Part shown: in pieces, positions 9,570 through 63,400 of the stretch
Layout of the letters: each line of letters starts with the position of its first letter
Numbering within the stretch: the stretch's first letter is position 1
NCBI RefSeq assembly: GCF_009914755.1
Contig: NC_060925.1
Length of the DNA stretch: 64,000 nt
From: the human T2T-CHM13v2.0 reference genome, Homo sapiens
Direction: 5' to 3' (one strand)
Made by a program: the position numbers and the translations under genes
Notes under the pieces: generated by a model
Seen by the model: only the letters and a program-made list of their open reading frames with translations
Databases searched by the model: none
What the model was told of the DNA's origin: nothing

Positions 9570-9690
9570 GATTGTTAGCTACTCAATGCAAGACTAGGGC
9601 CTTATTTATCTCTACATTCCTAGTGCCTAACCCAGTGTCTGATACTCAGAGTGAACAGGCATTTTATATTTGTTGAAGTAACAAACTAAA
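9570..9690 (+). mobile_element. L2 3'-end fragment
   Basis: TTTATCTCTACATTCCTAGTGCCTAACCCAGTGTCTG...ATATTTGTTGAA resembles the L2 3' terminus. Confidence 0.6.
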
Positions 9691-10016
9691 TAATTAAAGA
9701 ATCAGAAACTATACAATTCTACACAAAGTTCATAAAATACTGGAATATGTGAATCTTTTAATTCAGAAGCAAAGATTATATAAGCTCAGTTCCAACTGAC
9801 AATATCACTGAACCACAACACAAGATACAGTTAAGTGCCCATGGTAAACGTTTTTAAAAAATACATTCATGATCATCAATATATTTTATTTACAGGGTCA
9901 GGGAAGGAATTAGAACGTTTTAGAAAAAGTTCATCAATTCTGAGTGAAATGAAGTTTTAGGATCTCAAAAATAAAGTTTATTCTTTGTACTTTATTCTCT
10001 GATAAGAATTAATACA

Positions 10017-10068
10017 GTGTGTGTGTGTGCGTGCGTGCATGCACACGCAGGCACATGCACACGTGTGT
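10017..10068. repeat. (TG)n/(TGCG)n/(CA) alternating purine-pyrimidine microsatellite
   Basis: GTGTGTGTGTGTGCGTGCGTGCATGCACACGCAGGCACATGCACACGTGTG seen directly. Confidence 0.8.
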
Positions 10069-10109
10069 TTGAATGAATGGATGAGGTAATAAAAATGGAC
10101 AAAGAATAA

Positions 10110-10350
10110 AAAGCATGGAATTCAGAATTACTAGATTTGTAGTTAAGGCTCACTTCTATTTTAGTCCTACTGCTAGTTCTAACAATGAATATGACCTTGG
10201 AAAAGTAATTTAAACTACCATTTGCAATGGATATATCCGAAAACTGTGGGACTAGTACCTTACAGGAGTGTTATAAGAATCAAACGGGATGATGAACACA
10301 AAAGACCTTTGTAAACTCTAAAGAGCTATATAAACATTAAAGATCGTTAT
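10110..10350 (+). mobile_element. MIR fragment
   Basis: TATGACCTTGGAAAAGTAATTTAAAC...GTACCTTACAGGAGTGTTATAAGAATCAAA, a MIR core-like sequence. Confidence 0.6.
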
Positions 10351-60200: not shown

Positions 60201-60685
60201 ACCTCTCTTTGCTAAACTATTTATTTTTCAATCAGCACATGGTAAGGAAAGCCTTTTTGAAATGTCAATTAAGGGTCATAAAGCTGAAATCACGGAGCTG
60301 CAGAAAGTCTCAGGTGGTCCCTGGGATTCTTTAACTGAAGTCACTGCTGCCATTATCATCAGTAGTTCTGCTCCACTCAAAGACAAAAGTCAAGCACCAA
60401 ATGGCCAGGTAAAGTGGGAGCTAGGAGGATTTTCAATCAACTCGCTCACACATAAAAATAAGTCATCAAAATGCTCCTGGAGTGCCACTCGCCTCTGCAG
60501 TAATGTGCACCCTGAGCAGAAATCCTAGATTCTGCCTTCTTTCTAGAAGTAGAAAAGCAGTCTAAGTGTTTGAACCAATTCACAACAGAACTTTCTATTT
60601 GGTCTTCTTATGAGATGTAAAATGTTTATGAGCAGGAAAAACATTGCCCTGGACTAAAGGTCTCCTGATGAAATGAGTCAATCTG

Positions 60686-61714
60686 TTAAGAAATATTTCT
60701 GTCCACAGCTCTGTACATGGTATCCTTGGCCTCCATGTACCTCAGAGTGTAAACAACAGTGTCCAGAGGCAGAATGAATGATGATAATGTAGGTCTCTTA
60801 TAGAAGACCTGTTTTCTATTGAATTCATTGGCTTGTGCTTGAGGTAAGCAGTACAAGCACAGACATATAGACAATGACCATGATGAGGTGGGGGTTGGGG
60901 GACACAGGTGGCAAAGACCTCAGATTAGGAAATTCTAAGCACGATGGAGGTAACAGGGATGTCAATATAGGAAATGCAAACCAAACCCATGGACACCTGC
61001 ACACATGTGTGGTGAATAAAATACTGTTTATTTCATAGATAGTATTGTCAATGCAGGAGAGTTTCATGACAAGAAGGGTGTCAAACAAGAAGCAGTCTAA
61101 ATAGCATATGTGCTCCTTTTGTACCTCTGTGACACTGTGGTTATTTAGACCACTGTCATGATCAGGCCAATGCAAAAGGCACCACACGCCAGCTGGGCAC
61201 ATGCCCTCTTATTCACAAAGACTGTGCACTCCAGGAATTCCCAGACAAATACACAGCAGTCAATGGTGGTCAAGATGGCAAAGATCATTATTTGTAATTC
61301 AAAAGATAAATGCTTGAGGGGATGAATACCCCATTCTCTATGATATGCTTATTTCACAGTGCATGCCCATAAATATATACACCTACTACATACTCATAAA
61401 AATTGTTTTAAATCTTAAATAAATTTTTTTAAAAAAGAAAGAAAGAACCCAGAAATTAAAAAAAAAATGACAAAGACCAAGAAAATCTCCTGGTTCTGAG
61501 CTATGAGACTAGAAAGTATTGTAGAATAAGGATGAGTGTATAAAGTCACTGAACTAACCAACACTCTCAGGAAAACATACATGACCAATGTGGGTGAGAC
61601 TCAAGATGATGGCATTCCCTGCTGAAGTTAAGATGTGGATGACATCATTCACAGAAGCTGGAGACAACCAGCAAGGTGAACTTTGTCAGCTTCTGTGAGG
61701 TTCTTTCTTTGTAT
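60686..61714 (-). pseudogene. OR10AE1P: Degenerate OR10J5-like olfactory receptor pseudogene (probably OR10AE1P)
   Basis: The start has decayed to ATA (ATA CAA AGA AAG AAC CTC ACA GAA = xQRKNLTE, compare OR10J5 MKRKNFTE). Remnants include GNAIIL, MYVFL, CFLFDTLLVMKLSCIDNTIYEIN and C-terminal VVYTLRYMEAKDTMYRAVDRNIS*. Many frameshifts, deletions and an L1 insertion. The symbol comes from recalled locus order, not a search. Confidence 0.8.
61300..61470 (+). mobile_element. L1MA-type 3'-end fragment inserted in the OR pseudogene
   Basis: AAAGATAAATGCTTGAGGGGATGAATACCCCATT...CCCATAAATATATACACCTACTA plus an A-rich tail. Confidence 0.75.
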
Positions 61715-62779
61715 TTTGAAGTTTTAGGGATAACAATAAAATAGATCAGCATAAGAAAACTCTTGTGCTGCCATGTTTCTGTCATGAGCAGAAACATGGC
61801 ATAGTTGACAAGATGACAAGAGTAGCGCAAGACAGCTCTAGCCAAGACCTCTTGTAGCTGCACGAGCAAGGAATCTGCTTCTGCATCTTCAGTGCATGTA
61901 TTCTCTATCACTGTGGACTGGAAAATATATTCCTAGACACAGAGAAGGGAACTTTTAAACATACTCAAGATACAGAGTTACACTGAGTCCCTGCTGTTAC
62001 ATTTTTCTTCTTTGCACATCTCCTCCCAGAAGACTCAGGTATTATGAAGGGATTGTGAACAGCATGAAGATGGTTGTGGCCAGTGGGAGTCTGAATGGTA
62101 AATTTTATTTAAAAATTTATATTTAAAAAATGAATAAACATTAATCTCAGCAATGAAATCTATATTTTATAAAACTATAAAGATGGGTTGTTCAAAAAGA
62201 AGTGTAAGAGTGAAGGGATGTCAAGAAAGATAAAGACTAAGATACAGATATGGTGACATTCCAGAGAGCAGTTTCAGGTGAATTCTGAACTTAAAAGTGA
62301 GATTTCAGTGAGGTAATATGGTCGAGGTGTCTCACTAAACCTAAAAGTAGAAGATAAAAAAAAACTTAGCAGAGATTTTCTTTTATAAATGAACCCTGAA
62401 ATTAGGAACAGAGAAATGAGATCAAGAAAAGACTCTTGTGTATCAGCATGACCTGGAAAGTGACTGACAAATTTGTGAAGCTGCCAGAATTGTGAAGGGG
62501 AGTTAGGAGTTCACAGCAGCCTGAGCCTGGCATTTAGAGTCTGAAAGAGCTACTTTGGTAGAAAGGTCAGTCATAATCTCAGGTGGACACTGATTTTTCT
62601 CTGTTGTTGGCTGAAATGTTATTAGGTAGGCAACAAAGACATGATAGCCACTCTGTCAAGAAGAGACAATCTATAAACTGTGTGGGAAATATGCATTGAA
62701 TCCCAAGTCTCCTGTGGAGAATCTTGTTTCTCTCCTTTTGTTCTTTGTCAGAATTACTGAACCTTAGGAAACAAACTCC

Positions 62780-63400
62780 CTTCCTCTTTCTCCCTCCATC
62801 ATTCCCTGAAACTTGGCTTCTGACATGCTCACTTTATGAAAATTACTCTTTCAAAGGTTACGACTGAAGTTTTTATTGCTAAATCCAGCGTGCATTCAAC
62901 TTAGATCTCTCTGATGCATTTAATACCACTGGATACTGCTTCCTGGACACTTACACTGACTTGGTTTCCATGACACCACACGCTATCCTCTCTGCCAAAC
63001 ATAATTTTTTGTCTCCCACCTCCCTCCCCACCTGCCATTCTTATCTTGCCTCTAACACCATGAATGTGAATGTTTCCTCAAGTCAGTGGTTGGCTCCCTG
63101 ACCTTTCCTCTCTTCTCTTTTCCACTGAAAGACAAAATTCATTTTTGTTTCATTATCATTTATATGTTGATTTCTCTGAAACCTGTATTTCTAATTCCAA
63201 GTGGCCGTCACATATTACAAATTCTCCAAGACCTTTCTTACACATAAGTCATACTATCATTTCAAATTTAGCATTTGAGGAACCAAGTTTACCACCTACC
63301 CTCCACCTCCTCCAAGTGAACATCCTCTCAATTGTCCTATCTGTACTGGCAGCACCATATTTTTTTTCCACATGATTTGCAGTAAGAAATATGGTTCCAT
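62780..63400 (+). mobile_element. L2 fragment upstream of the OR pseudogene
   Basis: TTATTGCTAAATCCAG...GCATTTAATACCACTGG...CTTGGTTTCCATGACACCACAC, L2-like. Confidence 0.65.

What the first reader, a model, noticed from the sequence alone, without database searches (positions are those of the whole stretch)
9600..63000. Ancient tandem duplication of an OR-pentraxin head-to-head module with probable reciprocal gene loss
Seen: collinear, same-orientation homology anchors between two blocks. These are 9604-9653 vs 58282-58333 (TTTATCTCT.CAT.C.TAGTGC...GATACT..AGAGTG); 12970-13165 vs 59460-59680 (AGAGAAGATCACA, TTCTGTGGTTA, GAAAGTACCTT..AGCTCTGTCTCA.AGT); 13640-13655 vs 60220-60235 (ATTTTTCAATC); 13975-14150 vs 60510-60690 (GAGCAGAAATCCT, GGTCTC.T.ATGAAAT, TTAAGAAATATTTCTG); the OR coding regions (both end RNIS*); 15617-15668 vs 62272-62323 (TTTCAG.TGAATT.TGAA...GAGGTAAT.TGGTC); and an L2 at the same upstream position (16306 vs 62956). 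Copy 1 is intact OR10J5 plus a dead SAP-like gene. Copy 2 is the dead OR plus (recalled 1q23.2 gene order) functional APCS just past the right edge. Inference: one OR+pentraxin unit duplicated and each copy kept the opposite gene. Shared L2 relics and unshared L1M/L1PA/Alu insertions would date this after L2 activity but before the primate L1s. I do not know whether this has been described.
Basis: partly seen in the sequence, partly recalled or inferred. Interest (0 to 1): 0.8.

Follow-up and report, generated by a model that had tools for sequence, protein, structure and literature searches.

The report
Ancient duplicated smell-receptor/pentraxin gene block
A stretch of human chromosome 1 carrying one smell-receptor gene and one serum-amyloid-P-type immune gene was copied in tandem roughly 100 million years ago or more, and in humans each copy now keeps only one working gene, which is an ordinary way for gene clusters to evolve.

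Summary
Copy 1 (9546-42713; OR10J5 plus dead SAP-like gene LOC646430) and copy 2 (58226 to 73948, about 10 kb past the window edge; OR10AE1P plus APCS) share 14 collinear, same-strand anchors. These run from the OR 3' flank through the OR, the intergenic DNA and the pentraxin promoter and gene to 6 kb beyond it. A reversed-sequence control gave 0 hits. Neutral distances are uniform: non-coding K2P is 0.48-0.66, and dS is 0.69 for OR10J5/OR10AE1P and 0.68 for APCS/pseudogene. One duplication event fits best.

The "reciprocal loss" is real in humans, but the two losses were unlinked. OR10AE1P lost constraint almost at birth. The pentraxin pseudogene has only 4-5 lesions and a conserved promoter. 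It is the orthologue of intact "SAP-like" genes in New World monkeys, lemurs, a galago and a colugo.

The date is probably around or before the placental radiation. A later, Primatomorpha-stem date is not rejected (AU p=0.11). The shared-L2 claim could not be tested.

OR10J6P and an unannotated pentraxin relic left of the window hint at a third copy. This is an ordinary birth-and-death tandem duplication. Six literature searches found no description of it.

The parts
9546..42713 (.). Copy 1 of the duplicated block (33.2 kb, inflated by later repeat insertions)
   Evidence: First and last of 14 collinear +/+ anchors shared with copy 2. No anchor was found left of 9546 or right of 42713.
14150..15079 (-). 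OR10J5, intact olfactory receptor coding exon (309 aa)
   Evidence: Open frame. Pfam 7tm_4 E 2.5e-48. Falls in a 17-row clade (SH-aLRT 100) of sequences mostly named OR10J5 from several placental orders.
16361..30559 (.). Post-duplication insertions in copy 1, L1-like and Alu-like repeats (14.2 kb against 0.44 kb in copy 2)
   Evidence: Gap table. 17293-23319 is 90-93% identical to 54167-48020 on the opposite strand. Endonuclease and RT pieces lie at 19645-21627.
30560..34012 (+). Intergenic collinear anchors between the OR and the pentraxin (30560-30905, 33379-33631, 33830-34012)
   Evidence: E 5e-16, 0.01, 1e-5. K2P 0.56-0.66.
35826..36433 (+). Promoter and 5'UTR of the dead SAP-like gene, unusually well conserved against the APCS promoter
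   Evidence: 76% identity in the distal part and 86% in the proximal part, against about 60% for neutral DNA. A 56-bp identical run lies at 36251-36306.
36434..37261 (+). SAP-like pentraxin pseudogene (LOC646430): exon 1 from ATG 36434, intron about 36497-36661, exon 2 36662-37261
   Evidence: Pfam Pentaxin E 1.3e-33. Lesions: 1-bp deletion in exon 1, 2-bp deletion at 36740, TAG at 36993, and a 1-bp deletion at 37052 with an adjacent TAG at 37055. Groups with intact SAP-like proteins of 6 primatomorph species, support 100/99.
38111..42713 (+). Collinear anchors downstream of the pentraxin (38111-38191, 40058-40227, 42317-42713)
   Evidence: K2P 0.48-0.59.
42714..58225 (.). Spacer between the two copies, mostly younger L1-like and Alu-like repeats (about 45221-54346, 54637-55086, 56891-57213), leaving about 5 kb of other sequence
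   Evidence: Repeat hits. No homology to the outer flanks of either copy.
58226..64000 (.). Copy 2 of the block. It continues outside the window to 73948 (15.7 kb in all) and holds APCS at 66987-67773.
60686..61775 (-). OR10AE1P, a badly decayed OR of the OR10J5/J6 clade, with an interspersed-repeat insert at about 61287-61443
   Evidence: At least 9 deletions, at least 6 insertions and several stops relative to OR10J5. 38 of 41 genome matches fall on the insert. Forms a clade with OR10J5 and OR10J6P at 100/99. The 5' end reaches 61775 in the OR10J6P comparison.

Best explanation
A single ancient tandem (direct) duplication copied a block of at least about 16 kb. The block carried a minus-strand OR of the OR10J5/J6 type and, about 5 kb from its head, a plus-strand SAP-type short pentraxin with its promoter and about 6 kb of 3' flank. 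Unequal crossing-over within the OR10J/pentraxin cluster is the likeliest mechanism; this step is inferred. The event most probably took place around or before the placental radiation. The two copies then followed ordinary birth-and-death evolution. The OR of copy 2 (OR10AE1P) lost constraint almost at once. The pentraxin of copy 1 became a constrained 'SAP-like' gene. It is still intact in platyrrhines, strepsirrhines and a colugo, and it died late on the lineage to humans, probably on the catarrhine stem. Copy 1 was later swollen from about 16 to 33 kb by L1 and Alu insertions. Shown: the collinear homology, the uniform neutral distance, the gene relationships and the lesions. Inferred: the mechanism, the absolute date and the timing of the two losses.
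For: Extent: 14 anchors, all +/+ and in strictly rising order in both copies, cover 5.4 of 33.2 kb in copy 1 and 5.3 of 15.7 kb in copy 2. A reversed control gave 0 hits. Each of 10 non-coding anchors has a single partner in 284 kb. Seven of 13 inter-anchor gaps have similar lengths in the two copies (231/279, 209/168, 658/640, 224/216, 198/306, 1866/1513, 2089/2137). One event: K2P is 0.51-0.63 in the OR flanks, 0.56-0.66 in the intergenic anchors, 0.56 in the pentraxin intron, 0.60 in its 3'UTR and 0.48-0.59 downstream. dS is 0.686 for OR10J5/OR10AE1P and 0.677 for APCS/pseudogene. OR relationship: OR10AE1P groups with OR10J5 and OR10J6P at 100/99, with an end branch of 0.55. Pentraxin relationship: the pseudogene sits in a 7-row SAP-like clade at 100/99, whose topology follows the species tree. 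Date: the clade of 32 placental SAPs excludes the SAP-like clade at 99/95. As a local calibrator, OR10J5 and OR10J6 lineages both contain Afrotheria and Boreoeutheria, and J6 also contains Xenarthra; their dS is 0.77, only slightly more than 0.68-0.69. Timing of the losses: pairwise dN/dS is 0.56 for OR10AE1P, against 0.16 for OR10J5/J6P and 0.36 for APCS/pseudogene. None of the 12 hits to the human pseudogene fragment is a catarrhine SAP-like protein.
Against: An AU test does not reject a tree that joins the SAP-like clade with primatomorph SAPs (delta lnL 23.8, p=0.114). A younger duplication with fast divergence therefore remains possible. It would also explain more simply why intact SAP-like proteins turned up only in Primatomorpha: 6 species, and none from other orders among the 120 listed hits. 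K2P comes from BLAST-selected anchors near the detection floor, and NG86 dS of about 0.7 is near saturation, so the uniformity is partly forced. Only the intron and the 3'UTR are free of that selection. The position of OR10AE1P between J5 and J6 is unresolved. The free protein tree puts it in the J6 clade, while a tree with OR10AE1P held to the J5 clade is 1.8 lnL better (p-AU 0.585). The two copies are separated by about 15.5 kb, of which about 5 kb is not young repeat, so they do not abut. Promoter plus exon 1 (71-91% identical) could reflect gene conversion rather than constraint.
Confidence: 0.85

Rival explanations
1. The block duplication is the same, but it is younger. It happened on the Euarchontoglires-to-Primatomorpha stem (about 80-90 Mya). 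The SAP-like copy then diverged fast, and local mutation rates are high enough to give neutral distances near 0.6.
For: The AU test does not reject SAP-like plus primatomorph SAP as one clade (p=0.114). Intact SAP-like proteins were found only in primates and a colugo. That needs no losses in other orders. dS 0.68-0.69 is about 0.9 of the J5/J6 dS of 0.77, and that split is bounded only as at least as old as crown placentals.
Against: The clade of 32 placental SAPs excludes the SAP-like clade at 99/95 in the careful tree and 95 in the quick tree. Per-branch neutral distance is about 0.29-0.34. That is about twice what I recall for the human branch since the human-mouse ancestor (about 0.17; recalled figure, not from a call).
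Confidence: 0.25
2. Two independent duplications, one of the OR with its flanks and one of the pentraxin with its promoter, happen to lie in the same order and orientation.
For: Strong homology (above 70%) is confined to the 1.6-kb pentraxin unit and the OR coding region. An isolated pentraxin relic and OR10J6P show that small single-gene copies do occur here.
Against: Three intergenic and three downstream anchors bridge the genes in collinear order. Neutral distances are the same across the whole block. dS is the same for both gene pairs. Gap lengths between anchors match.
Confidence: 0.05
3. The non-coding anchors are chance alignments or shared ancient interspersed repeats (L2/MIR), not segmental homology.
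For: Identities of 57-63% are typical of old repeat pairs. No repeat library was available to classify them.
Against: The reversed control gave 0 hits. Each of 10 anchors has one partner only in 284 kb, always on the diagonal. By my arithmetic, 14 anchors all on the same strand and in the same order has a chance probability of about (1/2)^14 / 14!.
Confidence: 0.02

Closest known systems
Birth-and-death evolution of olfactory-receptor clusters by tandem duplication and pseudogenisation
   Same: There is a direct tandem copy inside an OR cluster. One OR copy decays into a pseudogene. Later L1/Alu insertions blur the repeat.
   Different: The unit carries a non-OR passenger gene, a short pentraxin, with its own promoter. 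Flank homology is still traceable at about 60% identity over the whole unit.
Other short-pentraxin gene/pseudogene pairs of human 1q23: CRP/CRPP1 and the MPTX1 pseudogene (names recalled; loci found)
   Same: They lie in the same cluster. CRP/CRPP1 exon 2 is 74% identical with dS 0.57, close to APCS/pseudogene at 74% and 0.68. The human MPTX1-like locus has a TGA, while orthologues in other mammals are intact.
   Different: Whether CRPP1 or MPTX1 were copied together with an OR was not tested.
Reciprocal (complementary) gene loss after duplication
   Same: In humans, each copy of a two-gene block retains the opposite gene.
   Different: The losses are far apart in time and lineage-specific: the OR was lost at once, the pentraxin late and only on the lineage to humans. 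Nothing shows that one loss depended on the other.

Membership tests
Tandem segmental duplication (ancient) | Two copies in the same orientation, adjacent on the chromosome | tested here: met
   All 14 anchors are +/+. The copies lie at 9546-42713 and 58226-73948, separated by 15.5 kb that is mostly younger repeats.
Tandem segmental duplication (ancient) | Collinear homology through genes and intergenic DNA, beyond chance | tested here: met
   Anchors rise in order in both copies. The reversed control gave 0 hits. Each anchor has a single partner in 284 kb.
Tandem segmental duplication (ancient) | One age along the unit | tested here: met
   Non-coding K2P is 0.48-0.66 throughout. dS is 0.69 (ORs) and 0.68 (pentraxins). 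Caveat: the values are near the detection and saturation limits.
Tandem segmental duplication (ancient) | Both copies present as separate orthologous blocks in other mammals | not testable with these tools
   No mammalian genome DNA other than this one is held. There is only indirect protein evidence.
Pentraxin family (Pfam PF00354), SAP lineage | Pentaxin domain, and grouping with SAP rather than CRP or MPTX | tested here: met
   The pseudogene fragment matches PF00354 at E 1.3e-33. It lies inside the placental SAP plus SAP-like clade, supported at 95 in the quick tree and 99/94 in the careful tree.
Olfactory receptor subfamily OR10J (J5/J6 group) for OR10AE1P | Monophyly with OR10J5 and OR10J6P within the OR10J genes | tested here: met
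   Nucleotide tree of 12 ORs: clade support 100/99. Its best genome-wide DNA matches are OR10J5 and OR10J6P. Its separate 'AE' subfamily name reflects decay. This is my reading, not checked against the nomenclature rules.
Reciprocal gene loss as a coupled process (complementary degeneration soon after duplication) | Both losses soon after the duplication, on the same lineage | tested here: not met
   OR10AE1P was neutral for nearly its whole branch. The pentraxin copy is intact in 6 other primatomorph species and has only 4-5 lesions in humans.
Shared L2 relic predating the duplication | The anchor at about 15991-16360 / 62634-63007 is an L2 fragment | not testable with these tools
   There is no repeat library. 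The genome search with 15600-16400 found only itself.

The most novel reading that the evidence does not exclude
The OR10J5/J6-SAP part of the 1q23 cluster arose on the eutherian stem by triplication of an OR-pentraxin module. Two modules survive in tandem. The third is now split: its pentraxin is the unannotated relic 12 kb left of the window, and its OR is OR10J6P 13 kb right of it, so the two pieces flank the other modules after a rearrangement. One product was a true additional short pentraxin ('SAP-like'), still functional in New World monkeys, lemurs and colugos, which catarrhines including humans lost about 30-40 Mya. Humans would then lack a serum-amyloid-P paralogue that other primates still use.
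Probability: 0.25. Interest if true: 0.5.

Novelty: new member of a known kind. Interest (0 to 1): 0.4.

Why it matters
The finding explains three annotations at once. LOC646430 is not a stray APCS copy. It is the dead human orthologue of an intact SAP-like gene in other primates. OR10AE1P is a decayed member of the OR10J5/J6 group rather than a separate subfamily. APCS and OR10J5 are positional paralogue partners. For pentraxin biology, it flags a lineage-specific loss of a SAP paralogue in the ancestry of humans. That bears on the use of marmosets or lemurs as models for SAP and amyloid work. The pseudogene also offers a well-preserved promoter for comparison with the APCS promoter. As genome evolution it is a clean but unsurprising case of tandem block duplication followed by independent gene death.

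Tried and rejected
The flanks of CRP, CRPP1 and MPTX1 were therefore not examined for OR partners.

3. I first read OR10J5 as much closer to OR10J6P (80% nt, 76% aa) than to OR10AE1P (65% nt), and took this as evidence against a shared node. I rejected that reading. The difference is all non-synonymous: dS is 0.77 against 0.69, and OR10AE1P joins the J5/J6P clade.

4. I searched for an OR relic next to the upstream pentraxin relic and for a pentraxin relic next to OR10J6P. Neither was found.

5. I searched for flank homology between OR10J6P and the OR10J5 or OR10AE1P flanks. There was one weak collinear trace (79293-79385/59823-59735, E 3e-5). The other hits were non-significant.

6. I looked for homology of the inter-copy spacer to the outer flanks. 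There was none apart from Alu-like repeats.

7. The L2 test by genome search was uninformative. A second such search failed on an out-of-range coordinate and was not repeated.

8. Placing OR10AE1P among mammalian J5 and J6 proteins left it unresolved. The test of J5+J6 without OR10AE1P did not finish.

9. Six literature searches turned up nothing on this duplication, on LOC646430 or on a primate SAP-like gene (listings only). OR10AE1P occurs once, in a GWAS paper listing. The passages I read in PMC1557991 were irrelevant.
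Full report
**Observation**

A BLASTN self-comparison of the window (word 7, +1/-1 scoring) gave seven HSPs on one +/+ diagonal between 9546-16360 and 58226-63007 (59-67% identity). 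All other hits were families of younger repeats. With block 2 reversed but not complemented, the same search gave 0 HSPs at E<=0.01, against 36 in the real comparison.

I assembled 284 kb around the window and searched 13 segments of copy 1 against it.
- Each of the 10 non-coding or promoter anchors had exactly one non-self hit, always on the diagonal.
- Segment 15080-15615 matched only the stretch upstream of OR10J6P.
- The OR coding segment matched 8 other places.
- The pentraxin gene body matched APCS and one further relic.

Both ORs end in RNIS-stop.

**Extent of the duplication**

I fetched 20 kb to the right of the window. APCS exon 2 lies at window 67165-67770, and its start codon at 66987. 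The diagonal continues as follows.
- Intergenic: 30560-30905/63452-63777 (62%, E 5e-16), 33379-33631/64859-65114 (E 0.01), 33830-34012/65421-65595 (E 1e-5).
- Pentraxin promoter and gene: 35826-37443/66412-67946 (70.7% over 1639 columns).
- Downstream: 38111-38191/69638-69717 and 40058-40227/71231-71393 (both E 0.004), and 42317-42713/73531-73948 (E 3e-20).

The three anchors with E 0.004-0.01 would not stand alone. Reversed controls gave 10 and 7 hits at E<=10, so these anchors count only because they are collinear.

Copy 1 is therefore 9546-42713 (33.2 kb) and copy 2 is 58226-73948 (15.7 kb). The 14 anchors cover 5.4 kb and 5.3 kb of them. Seven of the 13 gaps between anchors have similar lengths in the two copies. 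The large differences are in copy 1 (14,199 against 444 bp; 3037 against 878 bp). The largest gap holds L1-like sequence:
- it is 90-93% identical to another copy in the window;
- it carries endonuclease and reverse-transcriptase pieces.

No homology was found beyond either end of the unit, or between the 15.5-kb spacer and the outer flanks.

**One event or two**

Distances in non-coding DNA are uniform along the unit.

| Region | K2P |
|---|---|
| OR flanks | 0.51-0.63 |
| Intergenic anchors | 0.56-0.66 |
| Pentraxin intron | 0.56 |
| Pentraxin 3'UTR | 0.60 |
| Downstream anchors | 0.48-0.59 |

The intron and the 3'UTR are placed by the neighbouring exons rather than selected by BLAST, so they are the least biased values.

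Nei-Gojobori synonymous distances are:

| Pair | dS |
|---|---|
| OR10J5/OR10AE1P | 0.686 |
| APCS/pseudogene | 0.677 |
| OR10J6P/OR10AE1P | 0.709 |
| OR10J5/OR10J6P | 0.768 |
| OR10J5/OR10J1 | 1.15 |

At first OR10J5 seemed much closer to OR10J6P (80% nt, 76% aa) than to OR10AE1P (65% nt). That difference is entirely non-synonymous: pairwise dN/dS is 0.16 against 0.56.

In a nucleotide ML tree of 12 ORs, OR10AE1P joins OR10J5 and OR10J6P at 100/99, inside the OR10J genes, with an end branch of 0.55. Its best genome-wide DNA matches are OR10J5 and OR10J6P. I conclude that one block was duplicated (confidence 0.85).

**The two dead genes differ greatly in age**

OR10AE1P has the following damage.
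- At least 9 deletions, at least 6 insertions and several stops relative to OR10J5.
- An interspersed-repeat insert at about 61287-61443. On that insert fall 38 of the 41 genome matches to the OR10AE1P query, which include its match to itself.

I took dN/dS 0.16 as the constrained rate and assumed equal dS on both branches. By my arithmetic, about 96% of its branch was then neutral. It died almost at birth.

The pentraxin pseudogene keeps its ATG, its splice sites and a normal stop. Its lesions are few:
- a 1-bp deletion in exon 1;
- a 2-bp deletion at 36740;
- a TAG at 36993;
- a 1-bp deletion at 37052, with an adjacent TAG at 37055.

Its promoter and exon 1 are 71-91% identical to those of APCS, with a 56-bp identical run at 36251-36306 next to the TATA region. 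Neutral DNA here is about 60% identical.

A 110-residue in-frame piece (Pfam Pentaxin, E 1.3e-33) found 12 proteins.
- The best are full-length or nearly so and lack stops: Saguinus (81%), Saimiri (78%), Lemur catta 'serum amyloid P-component-like' (75%) and Otolemur (71%).
- True SAPs score at or below 62%.
- No catarrhine SAP-like protein appeared.

A second search with the lemur protein added Microcebus and the colugo Cynocephalus.

In ML trees the human pseudogene sits in this 7-row clade (SH-aLRT 99 in the 95-row quick tree; 100/99 in the 57-row careful tree). The topology inside the clade follows the species tree. With dN/dS 0.24 as the constrained rate, my arithmetic puts about 31% of its branch as neutral. 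That fits death after the platyrrhine split. This estimate is rough and inferred.

The 'reciprocal loss' is therefore a true description of the human state. It is made of two unrelated events.

**Date**

Evidence for an early date:
- The careful tree places the SAP-like clade outside a clade of 32 placental SAPs at 99/95. That clade includes Afrotheria, Laurasiatheria and Euarchontoglires but not the long hedgehog branch. The SAP-like clade still lies inside the placental group, apart from marsupial SAPs.
- As a local calibrator I searched with OR10J6P. In a 56-row quick tree, the J5 clade (17 rows, SH-aLRT 100) and the J6 clade (20 rows, 88) both hold Afrotheria and Boreoeutheria. J6 also holds Xenarthra, and two marsupial sequences fall outside both. 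The J5/J6 split (dS 0.77) is therefore at least as old as crown placentals, and the block duplication (dS 0.68-0.69) is about 0.9 of that depth.
- Per-branch neutral distance of about 0.29-0.34 is about twice the figure I recall for the human branch since the human-mouse ancestor (about 0.17; recalled, not from a call).

Evidence against an early date:
- An AU test does not reject joining the SAP-like clade with primatomorph SAPs (delta lnL 23.8, p=0.114).
- Intact SAP-like proteins were found in Primatomorpha only: 6 species among the 120 listed hits.
- The distances are near saturation.

I put about 70% on a date around or before the placental radiation, and about 25-30% on a later date, Boreoeutherian to Primatomorpha stem.

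**More than two copies**

A genome-wide search with APCS exon 2 gave 13 matches. Seven of them, marking six loci, lie in this chromosome 1 region:
- APCS;
- CRP;
- an MPTX1-like locus with one TGA;
- LOC646430 (two matches);
- CRPP1;
- a very decayed, apparently unannotated relic on the minus strand at window -11899..-11377.

The relic also has a trace of the promoter at -11215..-10982. It forms an unresolved trichotomy with APCS and the pseudogene at 90/96. OR10J6P lies on the plus strand 3.4 kb beyond the right end of copy 2. It forms the matching trichotomy with OR10J5 and OR10AE1P, and it shows one weak collinear trace of 3'-flank homology to OR10AE1P. Three ORs and three pentraxins of about one age suggest a triplication whose third module was later split. 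I could not find the missing partners next to either piece. This stays a speculation.

**What is known**

Six full-text searches found nothing on this duplication, on LOC646430 or on a primate SAP-like gene (listings only). OR10AE1P occurs once, in a GWAS paper listing. The passages I read in PMC1557991 were irrelevant. Subscription journals and genome-browser tracks such as self-chains were not searchable, so the block may be visible elsewhere.

In kind this is ordinary: tandem block duplication followed by birth-and-death evolution in an OR cluster.

**Verdict**

It needs correction on the coupling of the losses and on the number of copies, and its L2 claim is untested.
- Novelty: a new member of a known kind.
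- Interest: 0.4. This is mainly for the finding that humans carry the corpse of a SAP paralogue that other primates still have intact.

Noticed in passing
outside the window: G000:C1:158646099-158646533 (window -11899..-11377), minus strand; promoter trace at -11215..-10982: A heavily decayed SAP-type pentraxin relic (10 stops in the best frame). It is not in the gene table I was given. It forms a trichotomy with APCS and LOC646430.
   Followed up: partly
outside the window: L003 3357-4286 (window 77357-78286), plus strand: OR10J6P has a single TAA. It is as old a paralogue of OR10J5 and OR10AE1P as they are of each other (dS 0.71-0.77). Intact OR10J6 orthologues exist in pig, armadillo, tenrec, elephant shrews, lemurs and colugo.
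   Followed up: yes
window 61287-61443: An interspersed-repeat fragment of about 140-157 bp is inserted in the OR10AE1P coding region. It is up to 93% identical to many copies genome-wide and explains why the annotated pseudogene stops at 61286.
   Followed up: partly
window 17293-23319 and 48020-54167: Two long L1-like copies lie in opposite orientation at 90-93% identity, one inside copy 1 and one in the spacer. Such an inverted pair is a possible substrate for inversion. ORF2-type endonuclease and RT pieces lie at 19645-21627.
   Followed up: partly
window 36251-36306 vs 66822-66877 (outside the window): A 56-bp run is perfectly identical between the promoter of the dead SAP-like gene and the APCS promoter, within about 650 bp of 71-91% identity. 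Whether this is constraint or gene conversion is unresolved.
   Followed up: partly
outside the window: G000:C1:158413539-158414138 (+) and 158416089-158416709 (-): An OR10J-type fragment lies about 2 kb 3' of the MPTX1-like pseudogene. This is another OR/pentraxin adjacency, tail to tail. Its flanks were not fetched.
   Followed up: no
outside the window: G000:C1:158842174-158842374 and 158850575-158851183, minus strand: CRPP1 and CRP are a pair of similar depth (exon 2 74% identical, dS 0.57) to APCS and its pseudogene. The cluster may have seen a burst of duplications at about one time.
   Followed up: no
window 38216-38604; outside the window 70843-71235, 81130-81540 and -22100..-21739: A roughly 380-bp element is present in at least four copies in both orientations at 65-72% identity. 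It is an old interspersed repeat, not part of the block homology.
   Followed up: no
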